From a virus (Duplodnaviria; Heunggongvirae; Uroviricota; Caudoviricetes): a stretch of DNA of 6,146 nt. This document shows positions 3,533 through 3,918 of the stretch, piece by piece (position 1 is the stretch's first letter; the number at the start of each line of letters is the position of its first letter). The stretch covers positions 1 through 6,146 of IMG/VR virus record IMGVR_UViG_3300028991_000057; one strand, written 5' to 3'. The notes under the pieces were generated by a model, which ran no database searches, was not told where the DNA came from, and saw nothing but the letters and a program-made list of their open reading frames with translations. The position numbers were made by a program, and so were the translations under genes.

Positions 3533-3556
3533 AAAAAAGCCGGATTGCTCCGGCTA
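3533..3556 (-). terminator. rho-independent terminator after the 74-aa gene
   Basis: Minus strand AGCCGGA-gcaa-TCCGGCT followed by T6; same hairpin family as 1258-1282 and 3894-3918. Confidence 0.65.
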
Positions 3557-3574
3557 TGTGTGCTGTGTGCTGGC

Positions 3575-3799
3575 TCAGTCTCTGATCCCTTTCAGAAATT
3601 CTATCAATGCATCTATCTGTTCAGGATTTACCGCCAGCATTTCACCGGATAGCGCACATCTGACAAATCCATGCCGATCCTTTTCGATTAGCGCGCCCGT
3701 TTCCAGGAATGCGCGGTAATCAGTGATGTTCATCGTCTCCATGTTGTCAGCATGGTATTTATCACGCTGTTTTAATATCTCATCAAATATCATCGGCAT
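3575..3799 (-). CDS. hypothetical protein, 74 aa (terminator-bounded single gene; ORF could alternatively start at 3877)
   Basis: Internal ATG at 3797-3799 (MPMIFDEILKQ...) is preceded by GAGGAAAAAACA. The longer 100-aa form from 3877 lacks an obvious Shine-Dalgarno sequence. Terminators flank both sides. Confidence 0.5.
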   Translation of the reverse strand: MPMIFDEILKQRDKYHADNMETMNITDYRAFLETGALIEKDRHGFVRCALSGEMLAVNPEQIDALIEFLKGIRD

Positions 3800-3893
3800 T
3801 GTTTTTTCCTCTGTTGTGTCTGTTTGTTTCAGATAGTAACTATGCCGGACCGTGACGAAAAGCCGGTAATGCGCCATACCGTTTCAACTGGCG

Positions 3894-3918
3894 CAAAAAA
3901 AGCCGGATTTCTCCGGCT
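3894..3918 (-). terminator. rho-independent terminator closing the SSB/PerC-like operon
   Basis: Minus strand AGCCGGA-gaaa-TCCGGCT followed by T8, 7 nt after the TAA stop at 3925-3927. Confidence 0.7.

What the first reader, a model, noticed from the sequence alone, without database searches (positions are those of the whole stretch)
3533..3918. Single small gene insulated by near-identical terminators (moron-like cassette)
The 74-aa gene sits between two hairpins of the same family (AGCCGGA-N4-TCCGGCT plus T-run; a third copy is at 1258-1282), with its own ribosome-binding site and about 90 bp of upstream non-coding DNA. A transcriptionally insulated gene between functional modules is the typical layout of phage morons and accessory or defence cargo. 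The reuse of nearly the same terminator three times is itself notable.
Basis: partly seen in the sequence, partly recalled or inferred. Interest (0 to 1): 0.5.

Follow-up and report, generated by a model that had tools for sequence, protein, structure and literature searches.

The report
Optional small gene in phage satellite
The flagged segment is a real, terminator-bounded 363-bp unit carrying one small gene of unknown function that some E. coli phage satellites (PICIs) have and otherwise near-identical ones lack; the gene belongs to a conserved satellite-only family rather than being variable phage "moron" or defence cargo.

Summary
Three near-identical GNRA-tetraloop terminator hairpins (3901-3918, 3538-3555, 1263-1284, minus strand) are far beyond chance. 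A 74-aa gene (3575-3799, minus) with a GAGG ribosome-binding site lies between the first two.

The window is part of an E. coli PICI satellite with an EcCICFT073-type packaging module. The segment is a clean 363-bp presence/absence unit whose boundaries are the two terminator copies. EcCICFT073 and about 40-55% of related E. coli islands have one hairpin and no gene.

The "moron / cargo hotspot" reading is only partly right:
- Only this gene family was seen in the E. coli slot.
- Homologues of about 40% identity sit in a fixed position in capsid-forming PICIs of Klebsiella, Serratia, Proteus and others: after the replication origin and before the packaging operon.
- The truly variable cargo lies just downstream of that position.
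- The family is absent from 50,697 phage genomes and matches no defence or Pfam family.
- It has a confident predicted fold with no structural relative.
- No sigma-70 promoter is detectable in its leader.

The function is unknown. My best guess is a dispensable, acidic, trans-acting modulator. Modest interest.

The parts
3925..4197 (-). PerC/Pch-family regulator gene (pchE-like). It is the last gene of the post-ori early operon, and the cassette is inserted just after it.
   Evidence: Pfam PerC E 1.3e-43. Translation. RefSeq annotates a PerC family regulator in L001-L004. Published 5'RACE shows a polycistronic ECs1586-ECs1587-pchE transcript in O157:H7 (PMC7369912).
3894..3918 (-). Upstream terminator copy (T2): 7-bp GC-rich stem, GAAA tetraloop, U7 tract. 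It forms the left boundary repeat of the cassette.
   Evidence: D1; -12.6 kcal/mol. In islands without the gene only one hairpin remains.
3800..3893 (-). Leader of the small gene. GAGG Shine-Dalgarno at 3808-3811. No sigma-70-type promoter reported and no special RNA structure.
   Evidence: No promoter-like site here. Folding z-score -0.09. 97% identical between the window and EcCIEDL933, against 94% for the coding sequence. No Rfam match.
3575..3799 (-). 74-aa acidic protein (called X74 here). It is the E. coli branch of a satellite-specific family of unknown function.
   Evidence: phrog_1957 E 1.1e-39. 160 homologue clusters in Enterobacterales. AlphaFold2 pLDDT 91.8. No fold relatives. pI 4.9. 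9 synonymous against 4 nonsynonymous codon differences compared with EDL933.
3532..3555 (-). Downstream terminator copy (T1): same stem, GCAA tetraloop, U6 tract. It forms the right boundary repeat. Homology between lambda-type PICIs and cf-PICIs breaks immediately after it.
   Evidence: -13.6 kcal/mol. Junction comparison.
3485..3523 (.). Second hairpin (14-bp stem, A-run before and T-run after). It is the boundary element of the lambda-type capsid module and is present with or without the cassette.
   Evidence: I16; -24.2 kcal/mol. Conserved in EcCICFT073.
3350..3415 (-). Putative promoter and operator of the capsid operon. TATAAT is followed by a 15-nt-arm palindrome containing a LexA-box-like CTGG-N8-ACAG.
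   Evidence: Read from the sequence. Palindrome I14. Conserved in CFT073. The LexA-like core alone is not above chance.
1256..1286 (-). Third copy of the terminator family (T3). It ends the capsid operon (68 aa, MCP, decoration, 137 aa).
   Evidence: D1; -16.3 kcal/mol. Same position in L001, L002 and L004.

Best explanation
What the window is. It is a stretch of an E. coli phage-inducible chromosomal island (PICI). In the direction of transcription it runs: primase C-terminus, iteron origin, a post-ori operon (81 aa, 101 aa, SSB, PerC), the flagged unit, a lambda E/D-like capsid operon, a Nu1-like TerS/Rpp gene flanked by two cos sites, and a 93-aa gene.

What the flagged unit is. It is a facultative 363-bp cassette made of a roughly 100-nt leader, a 74-aa gene and one terminator copy. 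It sits exactly at the intrinsic terminator that ends the post-ori operon, so two copies of that terminator bracket it.

Shown:
- The hairpins have the sequence anatomy of strong Rho-independent terminators.
- The cassette is a clean indel whose ends are the two hairpin copies.
- Islands that share the same sequence immediately upstream of the hairpin (the PerC end) and near-identical capsid modules occur both with and without it.
- The gene is under purifying selection and belongs to a satellite-only family. In cf-PICIs of other genera that family is the first gene after ori and the last before the cargo hotspot and packaging operon.

Inferred:
- The repeated terminator is the substrate for recurrent loss by recombination or slippage between the roughly 30-nt direct repeats. 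Gain would come from recombination between islands.
- The gene has no recognisable promoter, so it is probably expressed by partial read-through of the upstream terminator from the post-ori promoter, or from an activator-dependent promoter.
- The product is a small acidic protein with a fold of three helices, a beta-hairpin and a C-terminal helix. It probably acts in trans as a modulator, by binding a helper-phage or host protein or possibly DNA through a wing-like hairpin.
- It is dispensable for basic island mobilisation, because EcCICFT073, which is experimentally mobilisable, lacks it.
For: Island identity:
- Pfam and PHROG assignments.
- 1979 of 5426 E. coli genomes match the window.
- Annotated EcCICFT073 and EcCIEDL933 loci.
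- cos1 and cos2 are described in PMC6739421.

Terminators.

Indel anatomy:
- Read directly from the sequences.
- 12 distinct cassettes aligned.
- 21 empty islands each have one hairpin with PerC-side left context and capsid-side right context.
- The same PerC-end contexts occur filled and empty. 'gctaatcaac' is filled in L027, L030, L059 and empty in L046, L058, L065. 'cacaccacgc' is filled in L050, L052, L054, L056 and empty in L048, L051.

Frequencies in E. coli complete genomes:
- The gene is in 539 genomes.
- The gene-T1-second-hairpin junction is in 360.
- The gene-T1-cf-leader junction is in 216.
- The 68-aa capsid-operon gene is in 597.

Family and position:
- Homologue searches and contexts.
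- 7 of 8 non-E. coli cf-PICIs found through their capsid gene carry it.
- Each of five homologues inspected is followed by its own terminator-like hairpin of different sequence.

Satellite-only.

Protein properties:
- Fold.
- Acidity and synonymous/nonsynonymous counts.

Expression: a post-ori promoter and polycistronic transcript were shown by 5'RACE in O157:H7 (PMC7369912).
Against: - No transcript data cover the gene itself. A promoter invisible to consensus scans could exist; the leader is at least as conserved as the coding sequence.
- The direction of events (insertion versus deletion) and the recombination mechanism are inferred from end-states only.
- Dispensability is shown only for the lambda-type island. 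For cf-PICIs it rests on natural variants of untested functionality.
Confidence: 0.55

Rival explanations
1. One reading: an autonomous moron-like accessory or defence cassette. It would have its own promoter in the roughly 100-nt leader, be insulated from both neighbouring operons, and be expressed from the integrated island to benefit the host, for example by anti-phage defence or virulence regulation.
For: - Flanking terminators.
- Presence/absence polymorphism between otherwise near-identical islands.
- A leader conserved as well as the coding sequence.
- Neighbouring genes PerC/PchE and RgdR are known host-gene regulators (PMC3378721, PMC7369912).
- GC slightly below the window mean: 44% against 49%.
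Against: - No promoter-like site in the leader.
- No PADLOC, Pfam or NCBIfam match.
- Absent from phage genomes.
- The same family is fixed in position across genera at about 40% identity, as expected of a long-resident satellite gene and not of recent cargo.
- In some E. coli-like islands a divergent allele follows PerC with no hairpin of this family in between; in L073 the two ORFs overlap.
- The GC value is within the range of neighbouring genes.
Confidence: 0.17
2. A core regulatory gene of the packaging module. The protein would be a DNA- or RNA-binding activator or antiterminator (winged-helix-like) that switches on the downstream capsid/packaging operon, and the terminators would set its dose.
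For: - It is always the last forward gene before the packaging operon or hotspot.
- Wing-like motif and weak winged-helix-type hits.
- cf-PICI packaging operons have a conserved structured leader ending in a terminator-like hairpin that could need a factor.
Against: - It is uniformly acidic, with family pI 4.5-5.9.
- No structural match to any winged-helix protein.
- It is absent from EcCICFT073, which is mobilised experimentally (PMC6092414), and from 21 of 38 E. coli cf-PICIs with 97-100% identical capsid genes.
- The same protein (about 95% identical) sits upstream of two unrelated capsid operons with unrelated upstream regions.
Confidence: 0.15
3. The gene is a decaying remnant, and the hairpins are a dispersed repeat family (REP-like or a recombination site) rather than terminators. 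The pattern would then reflect repeat-driven rearrangement without function.
For: - The hairpin copies are near-identical and mark recombination breakpoints.
- Frequent loss of the gene.
Against: - Intact ORFs in 539 E. coli genomes.
- An excess of synonymous changes.
- A family conserved across genera with a confident fold.
- Every hairpin copy follows a stop codon on the coding strand and carries a U-tract only on that strand.
- No copies outside the island in about 60 kb of flanking chromosome.
Confidence: 0.05

Closest known systems
EcCICFT073 (prototype Gram-negative PICI; Fillol-Salom 2018, 2019)
   Same: Same gene order: primase, iteron ori, small ORFs, SSB, PerC, 68 aa, lambda-E-like capsid, D-like decoration, 137 aa, Rpp/TerS between two cos sites, 93 aa. 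It has the same terminator family after PerC and after the 137-aa gene, and the same second hairpin and promoter palindrome.
   Different: It has no 74-aa gene and only one hairpin between PerC and the capsid promoter. The 68-aa gene region is about 77% identical at the DNA level.
EcCIEDL933 / O-island 51 / CP-933C (prototype capsid-forming PICI; Alqurainy et al., bioRxiv 10.1101/2022.09.08.507074)
   Same: It carries the same cassette (hairpin, leader, 74-aa gene at about 95% amino-acid identity, hairpin) directly after its PerC homologue pchE.
   Different: Downstream is an HK97-type packaging module (capsid, protease, portal, connectors, HNH, TerS, TerL) instead of the lambda-type one. Homology with the window ends right after the downstream hairpin. 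The mutational analysis in that preprint covered the genes of the packaging module only; I did not confirm that this gene lay outside that set.
Phage morons (terminator-bounded extra genes in lambdoid prophages)
   Same: A single small gene present or absent between conserved modules, followed by an intrinsic terminator.
   Different: It lies in a satellite, not a phage. The family is not found in phages. No own promoter is detectable. It is not compositionally foreign. It is an old, positionally conserved family rather than a sporadic acquisition.
Variable 'immune-system' region upstream of the cf-PICI packaging operon (bioRxiv 10.1101/2025.02.11.637232)
   Same: Same genomic neighbourhood, between the replication module and the packaging operon.
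   Different: In Klebsiella, Serratia, Proteus, Kosakonia and others the variable, mostly reverse-strand genes lie downstream of the 74-aa homologue. One is PADLOC PDC-M32A. The homologue itself is the conserved border gene. In E. coli that downstream hotspot is empty.
SaPI Ppi (phage packaging interference protein). This is a resemblance from memory, not tested.
   Same: A small satellite-encoded protein whose gene lies between the replication origin and the separately controlled packaging operon.
   Different: EcCICFT073-type interference is attributed to Rpp (PMC6739421).

Membership tests
Rho-independent (intrinsic) terminator | GC-rich stem-loop immediately followed by a U-tract on the transcribed strand, placed after a stop codon | tested here: met
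   7-9 bp stems with 5 G-C pairs, GNRA loops and 6-8 U. Each copy follows a stop codon of a minus-strand gene.
Rho-independent (intrinsic) terminator | Measured termination of transcription in vivo or in vitro | not testable with these tools
   No Term-seq or RNA-seq data were available. The published 5'RACE covers only the 5' end of the pchE operon.
Phage moron | Extra gene present or absent between genes that are adjacent in related genomes | tested here: met
   Absent in EcCICFT073 and in 21 of 38 E. coli cf-PICIs.
Phage moron | Own promoter allowing expression independent of the neighbouring operons | tested here: inconclusive
   The consensus scan finds no sigma-70-type site in 3800-3900 on the minus strand. 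By eye the best candidate is weak (TTTTCG-17-TACTAT). A non-canonical or activated promoter cannot be excluded.
Phage moron | Resides in a phage or prophage genome | tested here: not met
   The host element is a PICI satellite. tblastn with two family members finds nothing in 50,697 phage records.
Phage moron | Nucleotide composition distinct from its surroundings | tested here: not met
   GC is 44% against a window mean of 48.9%. That is within the range of neighbouring genes, 45-58%.
Anti-phage defence cargo of satellites | Similarity to a known or candidate defence protein family | tested here: not met
   No PADLOC hit at E up to 0.1. No Pfam or NCBIfam family.
Anti-phage defence cargo of satellites | Slot occupied by different, unrelated genes in related elements (hotspot behaviour) | tested here: not met
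   The E. coli slot holds either nothing or this family. The diverse genes lie downstream of the homologue in other genera.
PICI / cf-PICI satellite (host element) | Integrase, AlpA-type regulator, primase with iteron ori, packaging or interference genes; 10-18 kb; no tail or lysis genes | tested here: met
   The window has the primase C-terminus, GGTGAACAG iterons, capsid and TerS/Rpp genes and cos sites. Full islands of about 11-15 kb are seen in L001-L004.
Integron gene cassette (considered) | attC site of about 57-141 nt with paired R''/L''-L'/R' cores, and an IntI integrase nearby | tested here: not met
   The boundary repeats are 18-nt hairpins with U-tracts. The only integrase annotated in the related full islands is a tyrosine-type recombinase/integrase at the island end next to the chromosomal junction.
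RgdR (ECs1581) regulator of O-island 51 (considered) | 99-aa basic protein (pI about 10) with an RGD motif, encoded upstream of the primase | tested here: not met
   The protein here is 74 aa with pI 4.9 and no RGD motif. RgdR corresponds to the 99-aa DUF4222 gene outside the window (PMC3378721).
Winged-helix DNA-binding domain (considered) | Significant sequence or structural match to winged-helix domains | tested here: not met

The most novel reading that the evidence does not exclude
The 74-aa protein is the founding member of a satellite-specific family with a previously unseen small fold. It would act on a helper-phage or host target, as a new interference, counter-defence or induction-tuning factor. 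Islands would switch it in and out at the population level through recombination between the duplicated terminator. Its fixed position next to the cf-PICI defence hotspot could also mean that it controls or protects that cargo.
Probability: 0.25. Interest if true: 0.5.

Novelty: new member of a known kind. Interest (0 to 1): 0.3.

Why it matters
PICIs and capsid-forming PICIs are widespread vehicles of virulence and defence genes, and most of their small genes have no assigned function.

This analysis gives three things:
- It places one such gene in a defined family: satellite-only, position-fixed across Enterobacterales, with a confident fold that has no structural relative.
- It shows the gene is naturally optional in E. 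coli. This provides ready-made isogenic comparisons, such as EcCIEDL933-like islands with and without it.
- It shows that a reused terminator hairpin doubles as a module junction and as the boundary of an indel. This is a small, concrete example of how satellites shuffle modules.

It does not reveal a new kind of system.

Tried and rejected
- Capsid-protein scan of genome contigs: no relatives were found, so this island type is essentially E. coli-restricted among species representatives.
- The first family alignment was too diverse for pattern search. A closer alignment worked.
- Identity with RgdR, the known small regulator of O-island 51: rejected. RgdR is the 99-aa basic DUF4222 gene.
- PADLOC, NCBIfam and Pfam searches on the protein: nothing above threshold.
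- Single-sequence AlphaFold2: poor, pLDDT 58. It was replaced by the alignment-based model.
- Lambda-type nut sites (boxB, boxA) that could explain read-through of the terminators: none.
- LexA box in the capsid promoter: the core match is not above chance. I keep it only as a lead because it sits in a longer conserved palindrome.
- Rfam on the window and on related loci: only noise.
- Structured RNA in the leader: z-score -0.09.
- Integron-cassette idea: rejected on hairpin size and the absence of an IntI-type integrase.

Full report
OBSERVATION

They lie on the minus strand, which is the coding strand of every convincing gene in the window.
- 3918-3901: AGCCGGAGAAATCCGGCT followed by seven T.
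- 3555-3538: AGCCGGAGCAATCCGGCT followed by six T.
- 1284-1263: a 9-bp version followed by eight T.

The pattern AGCCGGA-N4-TCCGGC with up to 1 mismatch hits these three sites, against 0.03 expected; none of 200 shuffles reaches that number. Including their flanks, the copies form a 31-nt direct-repeat family at 84-87% identity. The two copies around the small gene are 363 nt apart start to start.

As RNA they fold at -12.6, -13.6 and -16.3 kcal/mol, and their loops (GAAA, GCAA, GAAA) are all GNRA tetraloops. The U-tract exists only on the minus strand, so they are unidirectional.

The gene reads MPMIFDEILK...KGIRD, 74 aa, at 3575-3799 on the minus strand. GAGG lies 8 nt upstream of the ATG. 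The mechanical ORF list gives 100 aa from an upstream ATG. Homologues from other genera begin at the conserved MP(I/M)T and RefSeq annotates 225 nt, so 74 aa is the correct reading.

A second, longer hairpin (3485-3523, -24.2 kcal/mol) follows the downstream terminator.

WHAT THE WINDOW IS

All genes run on the minus strand. In order of transcription:
- a P4/D5-type primase C-terminus (5463-6098);
- an iteron origin with GGTGAACAG repeats (about 5220-5460);
- an 81-aa and a 101-aa ORF;
- an SSB;
- a PerC-family regulator (3925-4197);
- the flagged unit;
- a 68-aa ORF;
- a lambda-E-like major capsid protein;
- a lambda-D-like decoration protein;
- a 137-aa scaffold-like protein;
- the third hairpin;
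- a Nu1-like small terminase/Rpp homologue;
- a 93-aa ORF.

Parts of the window match 1979 of 5426 complete E. coli genomes. In annotated relatives the whole element is an island of about 11 kb with an integrase, a helix-turn-helix regulator, an Icd-like gene, DUF4222 and a primase, inserted at different chromosomal sites. It is therefore a phage-inducible chromosomal island (PICI) with the packaging module of the experimentally studied EcCICFT073 (PMC6092414, PMC6739421).

THE UNIT IS A CLEAN, RECURRENT INDEL BOUNDED BY THE TERMINATOR COPIES

Three arrangements can be read directly from the sequences:
- In EcCICFT073 the PerC gene is followed by one hairpin, then at once by the second hairpin and the capsid promoter. 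There is no small gene.
- In the window, PerC is followed by hairpin, leader, gene, hairpin, and then the same second hairpin and promoter.
- In EcCIEDL933, the prototype capsid-forming PICI (cf-PICI), the same hairpin-leader-gene-hairpin unit follows its PerC homologue. Similarity to the window then stops right after the downstream U-tract, where an HK97-type packaging module begins.

I sampled IMG/VR through the EcCIEDL933 capsid protein, an anchor that does not depend on the small gene. Of 38 assessable E. coli-type cf-PICIs with 97-100% identical capsid genes:
- 16 carry the cassette;
- 1 carries a divergent allele;
- 21 carry nothing.

Every empty island has exactly one hairpin. Its left context is the PerC end and its right context is the capsid-module leader.

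The same PerC-end contexts occur in both states:
- 'gctaatcaac' is filled in L027, L030 and L059 and empty in L046, L058 and L065.
- 'cacaccacgc' is filled in L050, L052, L054 and L056 and empty in L048 and L051.

GAAA and GCAA loops appear at either position. This implies repeated gain or loss, or exchange between the copies.

Counts in complete E. coli genomes:
- The gene occurs in 539 genomes.
- It is joined to the lambda-type module in 360.
- It is joined to the cf-type leader in 216.
- The lambda-type capsid operon occurs in 597. About 40% of those islands therefore lack the gene. Nissle 1917 and CFT073 are examples.

THE GENE IS NOT VARIABLE CARGO

The exhaustive sequence search finds only 19 representative proteins at E up to 0.001 among 1.84 billion. 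A profile search then finds 160 clusters, all unnamed, in Klebsiella, Citrobacter, Enterobacter, Serratia, Raoultella, Pectobacterium, Hafnia, Proteus and others. They are about 40% identical and 76-90 aa long.

Context was the same in the Klebsiella, Serratia and Citrobacter loci and in 11 of the 14 species-representative loci. The homologue is the first gene after the primase and iteron origin, and it lies 0.3-1.8 kb upstream of an HK97-type capsid/protease/portal/connector/HNH/TerS/TerL module. That is the cf-PICI architecture. Two of the remaining loci (Erwinia) are fragmentary and one (Alloalcanivorax) is a lone gene.

In the capsid-anchored sample, 7 of 8 assessable non-E. coli cf-PICIs have it.

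The interval between the homologue and the capsid gene is what varies. It holds different, mostly reverse-strand genes: 157-aa, 168-181-aa, 254-257-aa, 159-aa, 131+100+134-aa, 139+230-aa and 376+122-aa sets. One is the PADLOC candidate system PDC-M32A, E 3e-139. [quoted passage not shown] So the hotspot is next door, and the 74-aa family is its conserved border gene.

Neither the E. coli type nor a Klebsiella type is found in 50,697 phage records. The few 'plasmid' hits include 16-17 kb circles that look like excised cf-PICIs.

The protein matches no Pfam, NCBIfam or PADLOC family. It is not RgdR, the known small regulator of this island type, which is the basic 99-aa DUF4222 gene upstream of the primase (PMC3378721).

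THE PROTEIN

With a 54-sequence alignment, AlphaFold2 gives a confident model (pLDDT 91.8). It has three short helices, a three-stranded beta element and a C-terminal helix. No structural relative was found:
- Foldseek against PDB: best E 1.6.
- Foldseek against viral predicted structures: best E 0.43.

A profile search of PDB sequences gives one marginal match, to residues 82-122 of the N.BspD6I recognition domain. The whole-sequence E-value is 5e-4, but the best domain i-E-value is 0.26. The motif, FFWIDHHDFVRSTLSGEILATNREQLDALIEHL against FVFVDEEGYLRITEAGKMLANNRRPKDVFLKQL, resembles the wing of winged-helix domains. I treat this as a lead only.

The family is uniformly acidic, with median pI 4.9 and range 4.5-5.9.

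Between the window and EcCIEDL933 the coding sequence differs at 9 synonymous and 4 nonsynonymous codons. The leader is 97% identical, against 94% for the coding sequence.

Between E. coli and Klebsiella the protein is about 39% identical, while portal and TerL are about 80% identical. It therefore evolves fast relative to the structural genes.

TRANSCRIPTION

Published RNA-seq and 5'RACE in O157:H7 strain PA20 place a start site 10 nt upstream of the first gene after the origin. They describe a polycistronic ECs1586-ECs1587-pchE RNA (PMC7369912). The upstream hairpin lies right after pchE/PerC.

In Klebsiella, Serratia and Proteus the homologue is itself the first gene after the origin. In all five homologues inspected, including two E. 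coli-like islands, it is followed by its own terminator-like hairpin of different sequence. In two E. coli-like islands (L066, L073) a divergent allele follows PerC directly, with no hairpin of this family in between; in L073 the two ORFs overlap.

So the family is normally the last gene of the post-ori transcript. The unusual feature of the window type is the extra terminator upstream of the gene.

The leader shows:
- no sigma-70-type promoter in the consensus scan;
- no nut-like elements in the window as a whole;
- no unusual RNA structure;
- no Rfam match.

I therefore infer expression by partial read-through or from an activator-dependent promoter. This inference is untested.

MECHANISM PROPOSED

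Shown:
- The terminator anatomy.
- The indel boundaries.
- The recurrence of both states.
- Family conservation and position.
- Satellite specificity.

Inferred:
- The duplicated terminator provides about 30 nt of direct repeat. This allows loss of the 363-bp unit by recombination or slippage, and its reacquisition by recombination between islands.
- The same hairpin is also the junction at which the early module is joined to two unrelated packaging modules.
- The protein is a dispensable trans-acting modulator made at low level from early transcription. It probably binds a helper or host protein.

Dispensability for the basic life cycle rests on EcCICFT073, which lacks the gene and is induced, packaged and transferred (PMC6092414).

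COMPARISON AND NOVELTY

The element is a known kind (PICI / cf-PICI). The cassette resembles a moron in being optional and terminator-bounded. It fails the moron criteria of phage residence, detectable own promoter and foreign composition, and it fails the hotspot criterion of variable content.

What is new is modest:
- an uncharacterised, satellite-only protein family with a confident fold that has no structural relative;
- a documented terminator-repeat-bounded on/off polymorphism.

Interest is 0.3.

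Noticed in passing
window 316-391 (+) and 1181-1256 (-): A 76-nt inverted repeat (79% complementary) flanks the Nu1-like terS/rpp gene. Both arms carry a lambda-like cosQ/cosN (…CCGTTAC|GGGGCGGCGACCTCGCG). The left copy is followed by cosB-like repeats GATCC(G/T)TTCT at 397-414, 450-467 and 498-516. These correspond to the published cos1 and cos2 of EcCICFT073. Why some PICIs keep two cos sites is stated as an open question in PMC6739421. Relative L001 lacks the 256-nt segment corresponding to window 283-537.
   Followed up: partly
window 3350-3415 (- strand): Upstream of the 68-aa/capsid operon a TATAAT is followed by a 15-nt-arm palindrome (AATCATAACTGGATG / CATACAGTTATGATT) with a LexA-box-like CTGG-N8-ACAG core. 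It is conserved in EcCICFT073. The core alone is not above chance. It could be an SOS or island-specific operator.
   Followed up: partly
window 3840-3968 (- strand): A 42-aa ORF spans the PerC 3' end and the upstream terminator hairpin. RefSeq annotates it as a hypothetical protein in L001 and L002, and as a frameshifted 'trigger factor' pseudogene in EDL933. It is almost certainly an annotation artefact.
   Followed up: no
L003 8722-8985 (-), and the equivalent regions of L005, L013, L014, L025: The roughly 250-nt leader of the cf-PICI packaging operon has elements conserved across genera: TTGTAAATTATTTGT, a GTGGCACTCAGACGTGAGCCGCCAC hairpin, and a GGTTTC…GAAACC stem just before the capsid start codon. 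In EcCIEDL933 a terminator-like hairpin plus T8 sits immediately before the ATG. There is no Rfam match. It may be an undescribed cis-regulatory leader.
   Followed up: partly
L066 4311-4760 and L073 4457-4760: Two E. coli-like cf-PICIs carry a divergent (about 41% identical, 'Klebsiella-type') allele of the small gene directly after PerC, with a different terminator. So the slot has at least three states. L066 also has a 16-codon reverse ORF (MSENELKKAMFIQQHF) with a strong AGGAGG site between that terminator and the capsid leader.
   Followed up: no
L026 7001-7234 (Alloalcanivorax venustensis): A lone homologue of the small protein (37% identity to the Klebsiella-type query used for the scan) lies in an apparently chromosomal context, with no detectable PICI genes within 7 kb on either side.
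   Followed up: no
plasmid records CP018459.1 (K. pneumoniae, 16,971 bp), NZ_CP038627.1 and NZ_CP123539.1 (Arsenophonus nasoniae, about 16 kb): These small non-mobilizable 'plasmids' carry a homologue of the small gene and have cf-PICI size. They may be excised or circularised satellites deposited as plasmids.
   Followed up: no
L020 7373-8861 (Kosakonia cowanii): The cargo between the small-gene homologue and the capsid gene includes a 376-aa protein matching the PADLOC candidate defence system PDC-M32A (E 3e-139). Most other cargo genes in this slot, in Klebsiella, Citrobacter, Enterobacter, Serratia and Proteus, match nothing.
   Followed up: partly
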